A stretch of DNA of 43,876 nucleotides from a virus (lineage: Duplodnaviria > Heunggongvirae > Uroviricota > Caudoviricetes), in the IMG/VR virus record IMGVR_UViG_3300037510_000012, positions 85,267-129,142 of that record, one strand, 5' to 3'. The notes under the pieces are model-generated. The model saw only the letters and a list, made by a program, of their open reading frames with translations, did no database searches and was not told the DNA's origin. Made by a program: the position numbers and the translations under genes. Numbering within the stretch: the stretch's first letter is position 1; each line of letters opens with the position of its first letter. This document shows, in pieces, positions 10,187-21,454 of this stretch.

Positions 10187-10189
10187 AAG

Positions 10190-10357
10190 TTCCGGCAAAA
10201 TAGTAGCTAATCGTAAAGGCTAAAAAGAAAAGAATTGAAATAAATCCCCCGGCTTCTGCCGGGGGATTTTTATTTTTCAAAAATAAATTTCAAATTCCGG
10301 CAGAATATATCGTAATCGTAAAGAGGAAATTCCGGCAAAATATGGTCTAATCGTAAA
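10190..10357 (+). repeat. three 28 bp direct repeats TTCCGGCA-R-AATA-N5-TAATCGTAAA
   Basis: copies at 10190-10217, 10295-10322, 10330-10357. Confidence 0.9.
10242..10277 (+). terminator. intrinsic (bidirectional-type) terminator
   Basis: AAATCCCCCGGC-TTCT-GCCGGGGGATTT then T-rich tract, after the last + strand early gene. Confidence 0.9.
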
Positions 10358-10373
10358 TGGGCCACTCCCCGGC

Positions 10374-10411
10374 CGAGGTCCGAAACGCCCGCTTCGCGGG
10401 CTTCGTCCTCG
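10374..10411. other. long GC-rich hairpin
   Basis: CGAGG..CGAA..GCCCG-CTTCG-CGGGC-TTCG.CCTCG nested pairing. Confidence 0.55.
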
Positions 10412-10694
10412 TTCGTCCCGATTTATGTAGGATTGTACCTAAATGTACTGGTATGCCATGGTATGTACCCAAATGTCCGAATTGACCGAATCCCTGCGCC
10501 GACTGGGATAGTACGGGATTCAACTGTTTCTGAGCTAAAGACTTTTCGGCTGTGTGACGATAAGGGAGCTGGGAGATTGTACCAACCTATGTAGCAATAC
10601 AATACATGGCACTAAAAGGTTGAAAGCTGAACAACTCTGGTCGGCCGGATTGGTTGAAACCCGAACAGTCAAAGCATGAAACCATGTATGTGCA

Positions 10695-10980
10695 TTATCC
10701 ACAGGCTGTGGATAAATCTGTGGATAACTCAGCTACTCAGCGCAATGTTACTTCACAGTATGTAGCAAAAGCTCTGTGCGCCGTTCTGAGAGCCTTTCAG
10801 CGGTAGGCACGTCCGGACACCCCAGGACACCCGCGAAAGGCTGTTAGACGCGAATTACACGGAGCGTGATAACTGACAGGGCATCAGAGAACCGGGATAA
10901 TTGCAGGTCACGGCACGTTTCCTCACATGACGACGTGTCAGGTTACTGACCAGTGGTCACGCTCTGCTGACTGTGGATAA
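10695..10980. promoter_or_regulatory. cluster of four perfect DnaA boxes (TTATCCACA)
   Basis: TTATCCACA 10695-10703; TGTGGATAA 10707-10715, 10719-10727, 10972-10980; first three spaced by 3 bp. Confidence 0.8.
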
Positions 10981-11342
10981 CTTTTCTTTACCAAGTTGTT
11001 GCCGAAAGGGTCTTGACAACGAAGCAAAAATCTGCTTTCAGGGGGTGGCCGGCCAATTAGGTAAATTTTTGGTAACGAAACTCAGAAACGCTTGACAAAC
11101 TAGCTACTGATGATGCATTTACGCGCGCACTCGCACTCGCCCCGGACGTGTGATTGGGGAGCGCCGAACGGGAAAACGGACATTCTAGCGTTTGTGCAGG
11201 TCAGACCGGGTTTTTCAAACGACTTCAGATTTTTTTAGGGCTCTGACCTGCGGTTTTGTATTCGTTACCATTCCGTGACCATTTCCAAGGTCAACTGCAC
11301 ACCCCCTCTGACCTGCGGTTTTCTACAAAAGCCCAGGTCAGA
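10903..11342. repeat. TGACCTG(C) repeats in both orientations
   Basis: GCAGGTCA 10903 and 11196; CTCTGACCTGCGGTTTT 11241-11257 and 11306-11322; CAGGTCAGA 11334-11342. Confidence 0.8.
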
Positions 11343-11847
11343 CCATGCCTTAGTGTTTTACATGTCAGCAGGAACGGGGGCCGGAAACGGCACCCGGACC
11401 GACTGGCACCGGCCCTAGCAACTGTGCTAGAGTCGGTAACGACGGAAAGCAAGGGAAAGGGGTACGGACATGAAAGTCACAGCGGGTCCGCGATAGGCGC
11501 GGGCAACGACAACATTATGCCTCCTAGTGCTACAACTAGGGTCGGATTAGTAGCTAAGCCAGTCGCTACGAATTCCGTTCTGAAAGCTCCCCGAAAGGGA
11601 AAGCACATTAAGGACGGGATACCCCAATACGATGGGGCGCGATGTACGGTGACCCGCTAAATCCGGCGCGGATGATGAAAGCAACTTCCGCAAAATATAC
11701 CGGCTCACTGATTCGGAATACTGCCTAAAGCTAATGCCGAATTGAGGGGGTGATAATTCCCGCAGCTCTGCGCTTTCGGGGGGTCGGTTGATGGATATGC
11801 GAAAGTCGTTGTTGCATATCCGGATTGGGAAGAAAGCTGAGGCAAAA

Positions 11848-12150
11848 ATGACCGCTTCCAAGACTGCCAAGCGTCCGGCCGCTCGCAAGGTTGCCGAGAC
11901 TGCCGAGAGTGACCCTCAGAACGTCGCAGGATGGACGTTCACGGCCCCCCGGAAGGTTCGGGGGTGGAAGAGTGCCGGTACCGTCTCTCTGGACCGTACA
12001 GAGACGTTTGAGCCGTCCGACGGATGGCACCGGACCATGCGCGCACTCTGGAACATGGGTGACGCTGCGGAGACTGCCACGGGTGGCAACGCGTACTATG
12101 CGCGTCGCCGTGACGCGATTCTCTCGCGTCTCATCCGTTTCGTTGGCTGA
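11848..12150 (+). CDS. hypothetical protein
   Basis: ATG 11848 in ORF 11788..12150; first gene of the GC-richer block. Confidence 0.7.
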   Translation: MTASKTAKRPAARKVAETAESDPQNVAGWTFTAPRKVRGWKSAGTVSLDRTETFEPSDGWHRTMRALWNMGDAAETATGGNAYYARRRDAILSRLIRFVG

Positions 12151-12224
12151 ATAGCCACTCAGTAAGACAAACCGAAAACACAATCTCCCAATCCGGTTAT
12201 GGAACAACGAAAGGAAAATCCATC

Positions 12225-12626
12225 ATGGATAAGCTCACTGGCCGAATCGCGCTGGAAATTCTCCGGAACCTGAAAAAGCGTGAGGCCGAATACCGCGCGG
12301 ACCGTGAGGAATGGTACCGGGCGGGTGACGGACGGCCCCGGAAGATGTGGCAAGGGCCGGATGATGACCGACCGTACAATTACGGCGGTAAGGGTTGGGC
12401 ATACCCGGAAGCGTGCGTTCACGGCTCTTCCGCATGGACCGACTATGACAACATCTGCGGTCCGTGTGAGGACGGATACAGCGTCTATCAGTTGGCTGTA
12501 TGGGAAGCGCAAGGGCGGGTGTCGGAATACAACAAGCGCTTTGAATGGCTGTTGTCCGCTCCCCGTTCGCTTCCCTACGAAATGCGCGACGATTTGCGCG
12601 ATTGGGTAATCGCTGCGCTCAAGTAA
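12225..12626 (+). CDS. hypothetical protein (C-x-H ... C-x2-C, possible Zn site)
   Basis: RBS AAAGGA; 133 aa. Confidence 0.8.
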   Translation: MDKLTGRIALEILRNLKKREAEYRADREEWYRAGDGRPRKMWQGPDDDRPYNYGGKGWAYPEACVHGSSAWTDYDNICGPCEDGYSVYQLAVWEAQGRVSEYNKRFEWLLSAPRSLPYEMRDDLRDWVIAALK

Positions 12627-12707
12627 TTCAGTCGGTCGGATTGGGGCCGGAAGCAATTCCGGCCACTCTCCCAATCAACTGAAATACAGTTGGTTAGAAA
12701 GGGAATT

Positions 12708-12905
12708 ATGGCTATCGTCGTTTCGCTCATTCTGGCACTCGCCCTTTGGGTCGGTGCTGCAATGGCATTCGCGGCCATTCCCGCATGGCTGGTCATGCTG
12801 ATTCTCGGCGCGGCCGGTTGTCATGTGGGGTACATCCCGTGCCTTTTGGTCGGAACCGTTTTCTCACTGTTTTTCTGTGAAGCGCGGGTTTCCGTCCGGT
12901 ACTAA
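12708..12905 (+). CDS. small membrane protein
   Basis: RBS AGAAAGGG; almost entirely hydrophobic 65 aa. Confidence 0.75.
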   Translation: MAIVVSLILALALWVGAAMAFAAIPAWLVMLILGAAGCHVGYIPCLLVGTVFSLFFCEARVSVRY

Positions 12906-12998
12906 CGGTTTGGGGGTCTGCCTTTTCTCCGAAAGGGGGAAAGGCATTCCACCCCAATCCGCTAGACGAAAAGCGGTGTCCTGAAAGGGAAAAAGAAA

Positions 12999-13667
12999 AT
13001 GTCGCTTGGTTCTCAGAGTGAGGCAAACGAGATTTTCGCGTACGTCCTCCGGTGGAATGCGTGGAAGGAATTCAACCGGAGCAACGAATACGCACGTTGG
13101 GAATTTGAAGACCACTTCCAGCGTGTGGCCAATCACAAGGCGGACCCGGAATGGTACCGGCACCCCGGAGAATTCCGGTGCCACTACGCCTACGGCCCGG
13201 AAATGCCGGAACCGACCGTGCCGGACGGCTGGAAGTTCCTTGCGGCCGGTGTGAGTCGTCGCGCCTACCTTTCCCCTACGGGAGTCGTTTACAAGGTCCA
13301 GCGGGACCCCGGAAGCGACTATCAGGGGAACAAGGGTGAGCACGAAACGGCCGAACGGGTGCGGAAGTCGGGTGAGGTGCGCGGCGCGTACATTCCCCGA
13401 ACCGCACTGTATGAGGTTCCGGGGTCATGGGTTATCGCCCTGGAATACATGCACGGTGTCCGGGGTGACTGGCATTGGGAAACCTATTGCAGCCCTTACA
13501 GCCGCTGTCAGTGCGCGTTTCCCGGTTACCGCCGTTGCGCTTCCGCCATTAAGCGGGAGTTGCAAACCAAGTTGGGACTTACGGACCTGCACAACGAAAA
13601 CGTTTTGTGGGTTCCGTCGCAGCGTGTTTGGGCGGTAGTCGATTTGGGACTGTCCAACAATTGGTAA
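12999..13667 (+). CDS. protein-kinase-like protein with Cys-rich insert, paralogue of 8439..8939
   Basis: FLAAGVSRRA, VVYKV, NKGEHE, IALEYM, DLHNENV, VVDLG. Confidence 0.8.
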   Translation: MSLGSQSEANEIFAYVLRWNAWKEFNRSNEYARWEFEDHFQRVANHKADPEWYRHPGEFRCHYAYGPEMPEPTVPDGWKFLAAGVSRRAYLSPTGVVYKVQRDPGSDYQGNKGEHETAERVRKSGEVRGAYIPRTALYEVPGSWVIALEYMHGVRGDWHWETYCSPYSRCQCAFPGYRRCASAIKRELQTKLGLTDLHNENVLWVPSQRVWAVVDLGLSNNW

Positions 13668-13739
13668 CCGTTCTGCCGGTTTGGGGGTGCTCATTCCGAA
13701 AGGGTGAGCATTCCCCATGTCTCGCAGAAAGGATGAGTT

Positions 13740-14198
13740 ATGCGTGACTACAACCCGACAAAGCCGGTAAGCGAATGGAATTACGCTGTTGAGGCCGAAT
13801 ACGGCTGGAATGGCGAAAACCTCATTCGGTCGGCTTTCTTCGGAACGGCAAAGGAATTTGCCGAATGGCTGGACCGTTTCGACTACGGTTCCGGCGACGT
13901 ATTCGGATGGAACGGTGATTCTGCCGTTTTGGAAGCGGTGGACTCATTCCGAAAGGAACCCATGTACGCACTTCCGGAATTCATTACGGAATACGACGTG
14001 AACAACGAAACCGACCCCGGAAAGGTAATCGGGGCGGATGAGTTCAACCGTCTGTTTCGCACTTTCCACCGAAAGGACGGTTACCGCGTACGTCGTTGGG
14101 CCGTTCCTGAGGGTCACGTCTACGCCGTTATGTTCAACGGTGAGTTGACCGGCCCTATGTGGCACATTCCTACTGACGCCGATTGCGTGTACGCCTAA
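13740..14198 (+). CDS. hypothetical protein
   Basis: RBS GAAAGGA; 152 aa. Confidence 0.8.
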   Translation: MRDYNPTKPVSEWNYAVEAEYGWNGENLIRSAFFGTAKEFAEWLDRFDYGSGDVFGWNGDSAVLEAVDSFRKEPMYALPEFITEYDVNNETDPGKVIGADEFNRLFRTFHRKDGYRVRRWAVPEGHVYAVMFNGELTGPMWHIPTDADCVYA

Positions 14199-14366
14199 GC
14201 GCAATTCGGCCCGGATATGAGGGGAGGTGGTTTCCTTGCGACGTAGGCGCAAGCGCAAATTACCCAACTGACTAAAGCTTGACGCTAGGGCGTCCGGGCA
14301 TTCGCAAGCCAATTTGGTTGTGAGTGTCCGAATGTCCTAAGGGTTAGGGCATTAGAAAGGCACATC

Positions 14367-14540
14367 ATGCGTACGGTTTCGGTTGACGGCATGTCCGGCA
14401 TCATTGCGGCGCGCGGTATGGGACCGAATGAGGGTCGGGTGTTCGTTCTGTTCGATGGGGACGGAACGGCGGAAGAGTCGGCCCGTTGGGTGTCTGTCGA
14501 GACTGTCACGGTGACCGGGGTCATTGCTGGCACGTTCTGA
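14367..14540 (+). CDS. small hypothetical protein (57 aa, beta-rich)
   Basis: RBS AGAAAGG; MRTVSVDGMSGIIAARG...GTF. Confidence 0.7.
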   Translation: MRTVSVDGMSGIIAARGMGPNEGRVFVLFDGDGTAEESARWVSVETVTVTGVIAGTF

Positions 14541-14643
14541 GTGATTGGGGGCCGTTCTGAGACGCTGTGAGCGGCCCCCCGGCCCGTTCGTCCACCCCGA
14601 CCCTGTAAGGCCGTTAGAACGGCACAGAGAGGATTTTTGTACC

Positions 14644-14868
14644 ATGGCACGTACCAAGTGGGAGATTCTGGAAGCGCGTGCGGAAAAGATGCGTGAGGAA
14701 TTGGCCGAATTGGAAAGCTACATGCGCGGAATGGAAAACACCCCGGATAACGCAAAGTGCACGGGGTGCGGCGAACAGTTCCGCGTCAATGCCGACTTTG
14801 CGCGGCATTTCAAGATTCCGAATGAGCAACTGTTGAACACGGGTTATTGCCCCAATAACCCGCGATAG
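14644..14868 (+). CDS. coiled-coil + zinc-finger protein
   Basis: RBS AGAGGA; heptad N-terminus, C-x2-C ... H ... C. Confidence 0.75.
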   Translation: MARTKWEILEARAEKMREELAELESYMRGMENTPDNAKCTGCGEQFRVNADFARHFKIPNEQLLNTGYCPNNPR

Positions 14869-14957
14869 CGCTTAGCTGTCTGGCGATTGCCATTCTCTTT
14901 CGGGGGAATGGCAATACGCCAAATGCCTAAGGGTTAGGCAGGAAAAGGGGAAAGCTA

Positions 14958-15392
14958 ATGGAGATTCGCAACGTTCCGAGTGCCGACATTGTCGGAACGG
15001 CCATTCTGCGGACTTCCGCAAAGTGGGGTGACAACATCACTTCCAAGAATGGCATTACCGTTTCGGCCAATCGTCGGAACGGAAACGTCAATGTCCGGGT
15101 GACGCTGCGGGGGCATTCCTCGCACGGTGACGGAATGCGGGAAAGCGCAAGCGGTAGGCGCGGCCCGTGGGTTTGCTGGCACGCGCACCGGGACTTTTTC
15201 CGTGCGCTGTTTGAGCTTGCGCCTATGGCGAGTGTCCGAACCGGTTTGGGTCGGGACGGTGTGACCTATACGGCGGACACGTTCGAAACGCTCTTCCCGC
15301 GCACGTACAACACAAATGCGGGTAGCGCATGGTATCCGCGTGAGTTCGGCACTCTGTGCGGCCACGGTGGACGTGAGGCCACGAACGGCTAA
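14958..15392 (+). CDS. hypothetical protein
   Basis: RBS AAGGGG; 144 aa. Confidence 0.8.
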   Translation: MEIRNVPSADIVGTAILRTSAKWGDNITSKNGITVSANRRNGNVNVRVTLRGHSSHGDGMRESASGRRGPWVCWHAHRDFFRALFELAPMASVRTGLGRDGVTYTADTFETLFPRTYNTNAGSAWYPREFGTLCGHGGREATNG

Positions 15393-15482
15393 ACGGTTCG
15401 GGTTGCGGTATTCCGGGCGGGTGTCTGGAATACCGTTTCCCAATCCGCTTACGGTGAGTGGATTAGAAAGGCAGTCAAAGCT

Positions 15483-15875
15483 ATGGGACACATTTTCGCT
15501 TTCATGACCGGTGAGGCCGTTTCGGTTGACGGTGGGGAGGACGAAAGGGAAGAGCGGCGCGGCTGGATTGACCGTGAATGGTCTATGACCGTTCTACACG
15601 AAAGCCGCAACGACGTTTCCCCGCTCGTTTCCCTTGACGAAAGCGACACCGAAAGTCTCGCGGACGAAATTCGAGACATTCTCGGTGACGGTTCGCTGTA
15701 TTTCGACAACGGCGACGGAACGTTTTACGGGCAGTCGGAAACCATGGAAGATGGTTTCTACTGGACTTACGCCGTTCACTTTGTCCGAAAGGGCGGCGCG
15801 AGTGAGGGTTTCCAGGAATCGCCCTGGCACCCGGAAAGCGACGGCGGTATTTCCCTTTCTGAGAATGGAGAGTGA
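15483..15875 (+). CDS. acidic hypothetical protein
   Basis: RBS AGAAAGG; 130 aa. Confidence 0.8.
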   Translation: MGHIFAFMTGEAVSVDGGEDEREERRGWIDREWSMTVLHESRNDVSPLVSLDESDTESLADEIRDILGDGSLYFDNGDGTFYGQSETMEDGFYWTYAVHFVRKGGASEGFQESPWHPESDGGISLSENGE

Positions 15876-16082
15876 ATGTACGACCGTAGCGAATACACCG
15901 TGACCGATTCGGGAATCAACGAATACGGTTCGGTATGGGTAAAGGCAATCGGGCCGGATTACACGATTGCCCGGCGATTGGTTGCGGCGCATTCCCGAAA
16001 GAACGGTTACGGCCGTTGGCTTTCTGCGGGTGCGACGCTTTCCCCGAACAGTGTTGAGGTTCGGGTGTGCTATCACCCCTAG
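15876..16082 (+). CDS. hypothetical protein
   Basis: abuts upstream stop; RBS GGAG. Confidence 0.7.
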   Translation: MYDRSEYTVTDSGINEYGSVWVKAIGPDYTIARRLVAAHSRKNGYGRWLSAGATLSPNSVEVRVCYHP

Positions 16083-16182
16083 TTGTTAGGTTGGTACATA
16101 GCCCGATACAAAAAGGGGCTGTGTGCCTTCCTACGGCCCCCGGAAACCGTTCCGGGTGTCTGTGTCTAGGGAGGTCCTAAGA

Positions 16183-16599
16183 ATGGCTCTGACGGGCGTA
16201 CACACGGACGGAAACGGCACCCGGCACCGGAACGGGGAGTGTGGTTACTCGCCCCTGTCTGTACGTGGGGTGACACGCTGTATGTGCAAGGGGTATCCGG
16301 CCACTACCGTGCAGGGTGATTGCACGGTATGCGGGGGCGGGTATTACGAAACGATGGGGGAATATGAAGCGGACATTCCCCCCGTCAATTCCGGGCGGGT
16401 TGTGGAAGAGTTCACCATTACCATCATTGCCTATAGGGGAAAGAACAAGGTAAAGGTAAACGGTATTCGGGAAGACTCGGTAAGTGCAAAGGTAGATACG
16501 GAAGGAAACGTCACCCTTTCCTTTGAGTTCTACGAATACCCGGACCGAATCGGTTATCTGCCGTGTGTGGATTGGTACGAAACCGAATGTGAGGTCTAG
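16183..16599 (+). CDS. Cys-rich hypothetical protein
   Basis: RBS GGGAGG, ATG 16183 in ORF 16123..16599; CxC and CxxC motifs. Confidence 0.75.
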   Translation: MALTGVHTDGNGTRHRNGECGYSPLSVRGVTRCMCKGYPATTVQGDCTVCGGGYYETMGEYEADIPPVNSGRVVEEFTITIIAYRGKNKVKVNGIREDSVSAKVDTEGNVTLSFEFYEYPDRIGYLPCVDWYETECEV

Positions 16600-16798
16600 A
16601 AAAGCGCTACTCAGCGAATAGAAAGGAATACGCATAGAGAGTAGACCTAGAGAGAGGGTAATTGTGGGGCATTCATTCGCGCCGAATATACGAGGCAAAT
16701 AGCCAAATAGCCCTGCAAATGCAAGCTAAATACAGGGAATAGGGGGGGTATATACGGTATCCCCCTATATACAAGGGCCTATAGGAAGGGGTCTATAT

Positions 16799-17062
16799 AT
16801 GGTATGTGCTATTCAGTGGGTACAAAGAAAGGAATGCGGCGGATATCTGGTCAATGATGGTACGCATACTGTCTTTGTAGATACCCATACTCAGGACAAT
16901 ACAACTCCCCTCTATATCTACCTAGGTATAGGGGATACACACAAGGGTAAGAGCGTGTATGAGAGTGCGCTTATCATGCCCTCTATGGTTATCAATGCTG
17001 CACAGTACAATGCATTGGTTTCCTCTATGCCTAATGACTCTCAAGAGGTATTCAAAGGGTGA
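16799..17062 (+). CDS. hypothetical protein
   Basis: RBS AAGGGG; 87 aa; lower GC than the upstream block. Confidence 0.55.
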   Translation: MVCAIQWVQRKECGGYLVNDGTHTVFVDTHTQDNTTPLYIYLGIGDTHKGKSVYESALIMPSMVINAAQYNALVSSMPNDSQEVFKG

Positions 17063-17468
17063 AATTCCCTCAGAAGAAAACCCGCGCGCAATTCTCAATC
17101 ATGCTGGCAATGTCTCTTCCTTTGTAGCTCGGAATACATTCCTCGGAATTGCTTTCGGTGCTGCGAGCGCCGGGGCAATTGCTGCCATTCTGACTTTTGG
17201 CGTGATTTTCTTCGGAATTGTTTGGTGCCTTTTCGCCGCCATTTAAAGAATTCTTCGGGGGGTCCTCCTATTGAATTGGGAATGGGTCCCCCGGAGAAAT
17301 TCTGGCGAATTCGAATTCCCTTTTATGGGCGCACTAATTGCGAATGCAAATTTTAATTGCCGGCCTATATCATACATCATAAAAAATTTGTGACATTTTG
17401 AATGTGGAAAATAGGTTACTCTAAGATGCTGCTACATTACTGTGTGTAATTCGCTGCAAACGCGAAAA

Positions 17469-20946: not shown

Positions 20947-20969
20947 GGTCTCCTTTTCTATTCTATAAG

Positions 20970-21042
20970 AGCCTGATGTGGGAATCGAACCCACGACCTT
21001 TCCCGTACCAAGGGAATGTTCTCCCACTGCAACTAATCAGGC
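20970..21042 (-). tRNA. tRNA-Thr(GGT)
   Basis: cloverleaf GCCTGAT...ATCAGGC; anticodon arm TTCCC-TTGGTAC-GGGAA; GTTCGATTC. Confidence 0.9.
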
Positions 21043-21097
21043 GCAGCCCCGAAGGGCGCAGGGCGACGAGACTTTGAACTAGTTTTAATCCCCTCGC

Positions 21098-21140
21098 AAG
21101 CTTACCGGTCCCCAAAAAGGAGAAGAAAAACGGGACCGGC
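21098..21140 (-). repeat. hairpin + TAAGCTT element on the - strand
   Basis: CCGGTCCC 21105-21112 / GGGACCGG 21132-21139, followed on the - strand by T-AAGCTT (21098-21103). Confidence 0.7.
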
Positions 21141-21144
21141 TAAG

Positions 21145-21216
21145 AGCCAGATATCGGAATCGAACCGATGATTCATCACTACGAAAGATGTGTGTTCCCA
21201 CTACAACTAATCTGGC
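21145..21216 (-). tRNA. tRNA-Thr(CGT)
   Basis: GCCAGAT...ATCTGGC; anticodon loop TTCGTAG; T.T mismatch at the loop-proximal pair of the anticodon stem. Confidence 0.85.
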
Positions 21217-21307
21217 GAAGGCCGTTCCCCTGCAACTAGGTACTAGACCGTCCTCGAACAACAGAGGCAAGTTCGGTTGCATTCTCCCCTGCGTACTTGC
21301 CCGATTG

Positions 21308-21381
21308 AGCCGGTTATCGGATTCGAACCGATGACCTATCGCTTACAAGGCGATTGCTCTGGCCAACTGAGCTAAACCGGC
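21308..21381 (-). tRNA. tRNA-Thr(TGT)
   Basis: GCCGGTT...AACCGGC; ATCGC-CTTGTAA-GCGAT; canonical D and T loops. Confidence 0.95.
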
Positions 21382-21382
21382 A

Positions 21383-21454
21383 GTGCACCCCCAAGGACTT
21401 GAACCTCAGATTACCACTGTATCAGAATGGCGTATTGCGTTATACTAGGGTGCA
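21383..21454 (-). tRNA. tRNA-Ile(GAT), somewhat degenerate
   Basis: TGCACCC...GGGTGCA; CCATT-CTGATAC-AGTGG; GTTCAAGTC; D-loop lacks GG. Confidence 0.75.

What the first reader, a model, noticed from the sequence alone, without database searches (positions are those of the whole stretch)
10695..10980. Four perfect host-type DnaA boxes in the non-coding control region of a lytic phage
Seen: TTATCCACA (10695), TGTGGATAA (10707, 10719) and TGTGGATAA (10972). The first two are inverted with a 3 bp gap and the third follows after another 3 bp. Four exact 9-mers in ~290 bp are very unlikely by chance (about 0.002 expected in that span). Established: TT(A/G)TCCACA is the DnaA box, and closely spaced inverted box pairs occur in Streptomyces oriC. 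Inference: the phage either uses host DnaA at its own origin or carries a DnaA sink. A sink would multiply with phage DNA and block host replication initiation, like datA. Either would be notable for a large lytic phage with its own nucleotide metabolism genes.
Basis: partly seen in the sequence, partly recalled or inferred. Interest (0 to 1): 0.78.

Follow-up and report, generated by a model that had tools for sequence, protein, structure and literature searches.

The report
Phage DnaA boxes around gyrase-like site
A family of large lytic Streptomyces phages keeps perfect binding sites for the host's replication-starter protein DnaA at one fixed place near the genome end, and in this subfamily they flank what looks like a landing site for the host enzyme DNA gyrase; the job is unproven, most likely helping to start phage DNA synthesis or soaking up host DnaA.

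Summary
The four TTATCCACA boxes are real (chance about 1e-9 per genome). The window is a cluster BK Streptomyces phage (Loccivirinae). All 17 BK loci examined keep a box group plus a distal box, 248-256 bp away in 16. Four BE phages keep the inverted pair, ending 61-63 bp before the terminal repeat. The scan noted this element before (BillNye, e1-1829615), and T5 has a published, unexplained counterpart. Two things are new here. First, the spacer holds a fixed-geometry dyad centred at 10816. It fits the gyrase wrapping motif, matches a Mu strong-gyrase-site arm 17/24 in register, recurs at 14549, and occurs without boxes in tectiviruses and an Arthrobacter phage. It is not a structured RNA. 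Second, box type and two-group layout copy a conserved non-origin Streptomyces cluster (pheA-serS, probably D78), not oriC. There are no DnaA-trios, no adjacent AT-rich unwinding element and no skew flip. DnaA binding is very likely (about 0.9) and a gyrase site plausible (about 0.6). For function: host-assisted replication start 0.35, D78-like sink 0.25, promoter control 0.15, entry anchor 0.12. Nothing was tested experimentally.

The parts
10695..10727 (.). DnaA-box triplet at 12-bp pitch: box 1 (+), box 2 (-), box 3 (-). Family-wide core is the inverted pair box 1/box 3; box 2 flips, decays or is deleted in relatives; box 1 is often degenerate
10972..10980 (-). Distal DnaA box 4, perfect in all 17 BK loci, 253 bp from box 3 here
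10750..10883 (.). Predicted strong DNA gyrase site (133-bp footprint, dyad axis 10816-10817); inverted arms 10767-10794 and 10839-10855 at invariant spacing around a variable 44-bp centre
   Evidence: prediction from a crude model, not tested biochemically
10735..10925 (.). 190-bp conserved block that contains the dyad and is shared, without DnaA boxes, with tectiviruses RickRoss and WheeHeim and (core only) Arthrobacter phage Yeezus
11013..11018 (+). TTGACA (-35-like) 32 bp after box 4; the distance is 30-32 or 41-42 bp in relatives, one helical turn apart. No good -10 in this phage
11092..11135 (+). Second TTGACA with weak -10 and a CGCGCG tract; candidate promoter firing away from the boxes into the high-GC block
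   Evidence: consensus match only
10242..10269 (.). Bidirectional intrinsic terminator closing the long rightward core gene block
10187..10361 (+). Three 35-bp AT-rich repeats found only here in the genome; the least stable stretch of the gap; similar words lie next to the BE boxes but are not seen in most BK relatives
10903..11344 (.). Four to five copies of a TGACCTGC-type motif, direct and inverted; binding protein unknown
11848..16599 (+). High-GC (57% versus 46-49%) block of small genes with no Pfam hit among those scanned; inferred early genes
   Evidence: 'early' is inference
14549..14625 (.). Second copy of the arm dyad, no DnaA boxes; second-best gyrase-model site of the whole genome (centre 14607)
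16664..17370 (.). Inferred terminal repeat (mapped from Moab, 712 bp); the boxes lie 6.4-6.7 kb from the right virion end

Best explanation
The locus is a docking hub for two host enzymes that the phage does not encode. Host DnaA binds the high-affinity triplet and box 4 (shown: sites and conservation; inferred: binding, about 0.9). Host gyrase wraps the 133-bp dyad between them (predicted, about 0.6). Promoters just to the right transcribe away from it (consensus only). Gyrase and transcription would underwind the DNA and DnaA would bend or open it, so that the phage's own DnaB-like helicase, primase and DnaE polymerase can be loaded for the first rounds of replication, or for synthesis rightwards through the terminal block and repeat. 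Loading and initiation are inferred by analogy with pSC101 (gyrase site about 200 bp from a DnaA-box origin) and lambda (transcriptional activation).
For: One locus per genome at the same place, right after the last core gene, in both subfamilies. The phage has DnaB (Moab is also annotated with primase, SSB and DnaE) but no DnaA and no type II topoisomerase A subunit. Geometry is fixed: box 3 to dyad 93.5-96.5 bp, box 3 to box 4 252-256 bp in 15 of 17. In four BE phages the last box is followed by 60 bp of 67-73% AT ending exactly at the terminus. pSC101 par binds gyrase and raises origin supercoiling, and transcription can substitute for it (PMC5043065).
Against: No DnaA-trios and no AT-rich unwinding element beside the boxes in this phage (50-60% AT; the least stable stretch is about 400 bp to the left), whereas a host oriC shows a clear tandem-box-plus-trio module. 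No change of GC skew or GCGGGT polarity at the locus. In T5 the mapped origins are central and not at the DnaA boxes (10.1101/866236). The dyad also occurs without boxes, even in protein-primed tectiviruses, so it is not origin-specific. No read data were available.
Confidence: 0.35

Rival explanations
1. D78/datA-like sink. Each phage genome carries a mimic of the host's high-affinity regulatory DnaA cluster; as phage DNA multiplies it titrates or inactivates DnaA, stops host initiation and frees nucleotides and replisome parts.
For: In 24 Streptomyces genomes the pheA-serS gap, 82 kb from oriC in the one genome mapped, holds two groups of boxes about 260 bp apart, with TTATCCACA 60 times against TTGTCCACA 19. 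Its right group matches the phage triplet region at 88% over 33 nt. BillNye shows nearly the same + + - ... - order. D78 is a known negative regulator (PMC3479198); that extra copies slow growth is recalled from Smulczyk-Krawczyszyn 2006, which was not held. Like D78, the phage site lacks trios.
Against: A sink does not need a fixed 61-63-bp distance to the genome end (BE) or phasing to a promoter. Only 2-4 perfect boxes per cluster and no enrichment elsewhere (1 found, about 1 expected). It would act only after phage DNA has multiplied. Identity of the pheA-serS cluster with D78 is inferred from distance and box content. The spacers of host and phage are not homologous.
Confidence: 0.25
2. 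Transcription control. DnaA at box 4 (with the triplet as helper through a loop) activates or represses the promoters of the high-GC block, and gyrase keeps them supercoiled.
For: Box 4 to the -35-like hexamer is 30-32 or 41-42 bp, with two different one-turn insertions. In tectiviruses and Yeezus the dyad lies directly upstream of gene groups. T5-like SPC35 has three boxes in its divergent pre-early promoter region.
Against: In LukeCage and Mildred21 (BE) the boxes lie between converging genes, about 11 kb from the promoter end of the repeat. The hexamer next to box 4 has no good -10 in this phage. No RNA data.
Confidence: 0.15
3. Entry or end-processing signal, like the proposed T5 injection stop: membrane-associated DnaA catches the DNA once the terminal early block has entered, or marks the repeat boundary for packaging.
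For: In BK and BE the boxes mark the inner edge of the right-terminal high-GC block, as T5 boxes mark the inner edge of the first-step segment, again in pairs 3 bp apart. Fixed distance to the terminus in BE.
Against: In BK the shared terminus motif is 5.9 kb from the boxes, so they are not needed in cis at the cut. Which end enters first and whether entry is stepwise is unknown for these phages. The T5 model itself is untested.
Confidence: 0.12
4. DARS-like reactivation of ADP-DnaA, or sites for another protein, or a neutral relic.
For: In this window boxes 1/2 are opposed and 2/3 co-directional, as in DARS cores (PMC6868365).
Against: DARS boxes I and II are 5 bp apart and both essential; here the gap is 3 bp and box 2 flips or is lost in relatives. 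Perfect conservation amid diverged flanks excludes a relic.
Confidence: 0.08

Closest known systems
DnaA boxes in the first-step-transfer repeat regions of T5-like phages (Davison, bioRxiv 10.1101/866236; first noted 1987 per that paper)
   Same: Perfect boxes in pairs 3 bp apart, in non-coding DNA at the edge of a terminal early block of a lytic phage with its own replication genes; conserved; function unproven. SPC35 also has gyrase-like tracts near its boxes.
   Different: T5 has eight sites in two 131-bp inverted copies inside the repeat; here there is one triplet plus one box outside the repeat, with an inverted outer pair, in an actinobacterial host.
Streptomyces non-origin DnaA cluster between pheA and serS (probably D78 of S. 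coelicolor)
   Same: TTATCCACA-type boxes, two groups about 250-270 bp apart, inverted pair at 24-25-bp pitch with a degenerate middle site, no trios.
   Different: Chromosomal, 5-7 boxes, unrelated spacer without the arm dyad; single copy by design.
Strong gyrase sites of phage Mu (SGS) and pSC101 (par); Topo-Seq gyrase motif (PMC6379681)
   Same: About 130 bp, two 10.75-bp-phased arms around a short centre; 17/24 identity to one Mu arm at the same distance from the axis.
   Different: Not tested with gyrase; scores lower than pSC101 (6.5 here, 6.1-8.9 in BK, Mu 8.6, pSC101 10.4 in my crude model); no such site described for actinophages or tectiviruses in the papers searched.
pSC101 origin (par gyrase site, DnaA boxes, AT-rich tract, RepA iterons)
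   Same: DnaA boxes next to a gyrase site, with transcription able to assist.
   Different: No Rep gene or clear iterons identified, and no AT-rich tract adjoining the boxes.
E. coli datA and DARS1/2
   Same: Small clusters of high-affinity boxes outside oriC.
   Different: They need IHF or Fis sites or a fixed 5-bp head-to-head pair; not met or not tested here.

Membership tests
DnaA-dependent oriC-type origin | Cluster of DnaA boxes in non-coding DNA | tested here: met
DnaA-dependent oriC-type origin | Basal unwinding module: tandem boxes, GC stretch, DnaA-trios | tested here: not met
   none near the boxes; present in a Streptomyces oriC
DnaA-dependent oriC-type origin | AT-rich unwinding element next to the boxes | tested here: not met
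   50-60% AT here; 67-73% in the BE homologues
DnaA-dependent oriC-type origin | Strand-bias inversion at the site | tested here: inconclusive
   no flip; skew follows gene direction, so unidirectional or first-round use would be invisible
DnaA-dependent oriC-type origin | Autonomous, DnaA-dependent initiation | not testable with these tools
   needs experiment
D78/datA-type DnaA titration locus | High-affinity boxes in two groups outside the origin | tested here: met
D78/datA-type DnaA titration locus | IHF site between the boxes (datA) | not tested
   no sequence-specific equivalent known to me in Streptomyces
D78/datA-type DnaA titration locus | Extra copies lower host initiation | not testable with these tools
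   needs experiment
DARS core | Boxes I and II opposed, 5 bp apart, both kept | tested here: not met
   3-bp gap; box 2 flips or is lost
T5 injection-stop region | Box pairs 3 bp apart at the inner edge of a terminal early block | tested here: met
T5 injection-stop region | Two long inverted copies of the box array inside the terminal repeat | tested here: not met
   single array outside the repeat
T5 injection-stop region | Two-step injection, A1/A2 genes | not tested
   A1/A2 not searched; injection not testable here
Strong gyrase site (Mu SGS, pSC101 par) | Two arms with 10.75-bp phased G+C symmetric about a centre, about 130 bp | tested here: met
   crude model that ranks Mu 1/4369 and pSC101 1/9131; dyad scores in the top 0.01-2.4% of positions in 18 homologues; shuffle p 0.0007-0.027; optimum at the natural spacing
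Strong gyrase site (Mu SGS, pSC101 par) | Top score with the published position-weight matrix | not tested
   table DS10 was cut from the held supplement; the window copy is not among the genome's top 15 in my models
Strong gyrase site (Mu SGS, pSC101 par) | Preferred gyrase binding and cleavage at the axis | not testable with these tools
   needs experiment
Structured ncRNA or single-strand hairpin signal | Conserved fold with covariation | tested here: not met
   covariation term -0.05; no excess over shuffles; z between +0.4 and -0.8 in RickRoss and Kenrey; no Rfam hit on the element

The most novel reading that the evidence does not exclude
Large lytic actinophages have assembled a composite cis element from two host-enzyme docking sites: a mimic of the host's regulatory DnaA cluster wrapped around a portable strong gyrase site that is also traded with unrelated tectiviruses. 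It would start phage replication with host DnaA and gyrase while draining DnaA from the host origin, and would be a tractable model for the unexplained DnaA boxes of T5 and of many uncultured phages.
Probability: 0.25. Interest if true: 0.8.

Novelty: new variant of a known kind. Interest (0 to 1): 0.58.

Why it matters
Large lytic phages are usually taken to replicate without the host initiator, yet tandem perfect DnaA boxes are common in their non-coding DNA (at least 119 viral contigs against 23 for a reversed control) and their role has been open since they were seen in T5. These Streptomyces phages are cultured, come with natural variants (box flips, a 62-bp deletion, one-turn insertions, BE versus BK layout), and the host has a characterised DnaA and titration locus, so the rival roles can be separated directly. 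The gyrase prediction gives a base-pair position to test and suggests an undescribed family of strong gyrase sites shared across virus realms.

Tried and rejected
Rfam: only terminator-shaped hits below threshold at 10209-10330, nothing on the element. RNA or single-strand hairpin reading of the spacer: rejected. Plasmid collection and bacterial genomes: no copy of the spacer element, so no host or plasmid source was found. GC skew, fourfold-site skew and GCGGGT polarity: no origin signal. DnaA-trio and unwinding-element search: negative. DARS: geometry not kept. Link between DnaA pairs and gyrase-like sites in 119 unrelated viral loci: mean percentile 0.62 against 0.57 in 15 control loci, inconclusive; the actinophage arm dyad is not enriched there. 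My first gyrase model did not place the element in the genome's top 15; the models are crude, give scores of 7-9 every few kb, and the 24-nt Mu comparison window was chosen after looking. Pfam gave nothing for nine flanking genes. Primary papers on D78, T5 gyrase dependence and pSC101 par were not held. Literature searches found no paper on DnaA boxes, origins or gyrase sites in these phages. One search printed box 4-to-hexamer distances with an offset error; the values quoted are corrected by adding the box-4 coordinate and can be counted on the printed sequences.

Full report
Observation. The 129-kb genome has one other copy, about what chance gives, while four in 290 bp has p about 1e-12. 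They lie in a 1.66-kb gene-free gap (10187-11847) between the terminator that ends the long rightward core block and a 57%-GC block of small genes.

Identity. The gap matches 39 phage records, 38 of them large BK-type Streptomyces phages (Stanwilliamsviridae, Loccivirinae where classified; Moab 81%), and in most the shared part begins at the boxes. Mapping Moab's ends puts the terminal repeat at about 16664-17370, so the boxes are 6.4-6.7 kb from the right virion end. The genome encodes a DnaB helicase, no DnaA and no type II topoisomerase A subunit; Moab is annotated with primase, SSB, DnaE and RecA.

Conservation. In 17 BK loci from four genera, box 3 and box 4 are kept, with one mismatch in Comrade's box 3. 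Box 2 points either way or is lost, box 1 is often degenerate, and flanks upstream do not align. Box 3 to box 4 is 252-256 bp in 15 loci, 248 in Byblos and 191 in Comrade. The sister subfamily (BE) keeps the inverted outer pair at 22-24-bp pitch at the same place after the last core gene. In LukeCage, Yaboi, Mildred21 and Jay2Jay the last box ends 61-63 bp before the terminal repeat, with 67-73% AT in between. The terminus motif is shared by BE and Moab-type BK phages, but in BK it is 5.9 kb from the boxes. The distance from box 4 to the next TTGACA or TGGACA is 30-32 or 41-42 bp.

The spacer. About 190 bp between the boxes are shared, without any box, with the tectiviruses RickRoss and WheeHeim, and the core with Arthrobacter phage Yeezus. 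It has two inverted arms at an invariant spacing around a variable centre. It does not behave as a folded strand. Its words resemble known strong gyrase sites, so I fitted a 10.75-bp periodic model to the published Topo-Seq consensus (PMC6379681). The model ranks the Mu cut site first of 4369 positions and pSC101 par first of 9131. At the dyad axis defined by the arms (10816), all 18 homologues score in the top 0.01-2.4% of genome positions, the window itself at 0.52%; shuffle p values are 0.0007-0.027, and the mean score peaks at the natural arm spacing. The left arm matches one Mu arm at 17 of 24 nt, 31.5 versus 30.5 bp from the axis, tied best in the genome. A second dyad at 14549-14625, found later by profile search, had already ranked second genome-wide. 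Dyads not used for training pile up at the same arm gap in actinophage DNA (21 of 96 at 43-44 bp, 3 expected, 2 of 70 after shuffling; several are orthologues of each other), with side peaks one turn away. Mycobacterial gyrase shows the same periodic preference (PMC12324340). The model is crude and the homologues are not independent, so I put the gyrase site at about 0.6.

Comparison with the host. In a Streptomyces genome TTATCCACA occurs 26 times against 3 for the reversed control. Its oriC has mostly degenerate boxes and ends in a tandem pair followed by trios, a module the phage lacks. A cluster 82 kb away, between pheA and serS, has two groups about 260 bp apart, and 24 genomes keep this layout with TTATCCACA as the main box. 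By distance and content this is probably D78, a published negative regulator (PMC3479198). The phage array resembles it more than oriC, which supports real DnaA binding and raises the sink reading.

Wider context. T5-like phages carry box pairs 3 bp apart in their first-step region, with an untested membrane-anchor model (10.1101/866236; SPC35). A BK-like triplet word occurs in 39 contigs, many followed by about 70% AT.

Mechanism. Shown: selected DnaA-type sites at one locus with fixed geometry, a conserved double-stranded dyad, promoter-like hexamers in phase, and absence of the matching phage enzymes. Inferred: DnaA and gyrase bind. Most likely job (0.35): host-assisted opening for first-round or terminal-segment DNA synthesis, as in pSC101 where a gyrase site and transcription supercoil a DnaA-box origin (PMC5043065). 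In both subfamilies a fork leaving the boxes rightwards would cross the high-GC block to the repeat end. Against it are the missing trios and unwinding element and the flat skew. Rivals: D78-like sink 0.25, promoter control 0.15, entry or end signal 0.12, other 0.08-0.13. The roles are not exclusive.

Verdict. Real and conserved, a new variant of a known but unexplained kind of phage element, with a new and testable gyrase prediction. Interest 0.58.

Noticed in passing
window 14549-14625; L001:12552; L183:5458 and 5608; L185:6305 and 6474; L172:12093; L002:2010; L169:8484: Further copies of the fixed-gap arm dyad in gaps of the high-GC blocks of BK and BE phages, a tectivirus and an Arthrobacter phage, all without DnaA boxes; a candidate family of actinophage gyrase sites.
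   Followed up: partly
L173:2850-2985 (Mildred21 about 121981) and L175:5825-5960 (Jay2Jay about 122892): Top or second gyrase-model sites in these BE regions, with arms that look very like the Topo-Seq consensus, about 900 bp right of the DnaA boxes at the downstream end of the repeat genes.
   Followed up: partly
L021:4938-5030, L173, L174, L175: BE phages: DnaA pair, then 60 AT-rich bp, then a conserved GTGTAATG ending exactly at the genome terminus.
   Followed up: partly
window 16650-16670 and 17325-17420 versus L172:12240-12340: Both boundary motifs of the terminal repeat are shared between BK (712-bp repeat) and BE (12.3-kb repeat); BillNye (2262-bp repeat) has a different start.
   Followed up: partly
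L002:3496-3690, L024:1490-1684, L177:5229: A 190-bp non-coding element about 70% alike between tailed phages and tectiviruses of Streptomyces, implying DNA exchange across virus realms; it sits between the DNA polymerase gene and the next gene.
   Followed up: partly
L005:2192-2617 (TunaTartare); also Forrest and Jada: An HNH/endonuclease VII gene is inserted just left of the box cluster in some BK phages; LukeCage has one beside its dyad at the inner repeat edge, and T5 between its repeat regions 1 and 2.
   Followed up: no
L343 and L355-L378: Conserved two-group DnaA-box cluster in the pheA-serS gap of 24 Streptomyces genomes, dominated by TTATCCACA.
   Followed up: yes
L010 and L011, 130 bp upstream of box 1: Ankus, Byblos and DekoNeimoidia have phased A/T tracts (likely bent DNA) left of the boxes in place of the sequence seen here.
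   Followed up: no
whole genome, re-linearised at window 16664: GCGGGT is on the minus strand in the first 10 kb and on the plus strand elsewhere (76 versus 26 overall), following gene direction, with no flip at the boxes.
   Followed up: partly
G000:C1:80660-82299 (outside the window): Homologues of two BE terminal-repeat genes (Lsr2-like and DUF945) lie in a separate higher-GC patch of this genome, not in its terminal block.
   Followed up: no
window 7271-7342 and 20969-21453: A lone tRNA-His-like gene with anticodon ATG, and a minus-strand group of three tRNA-Thr and one tRNA-Ile.
   Followed up: no
L307-L342: A group of about 39%-GC uncultured phages carries the same triplet word preceded by an A-tract and a further partial box and followed by about 70% AT.
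   Followed up: no
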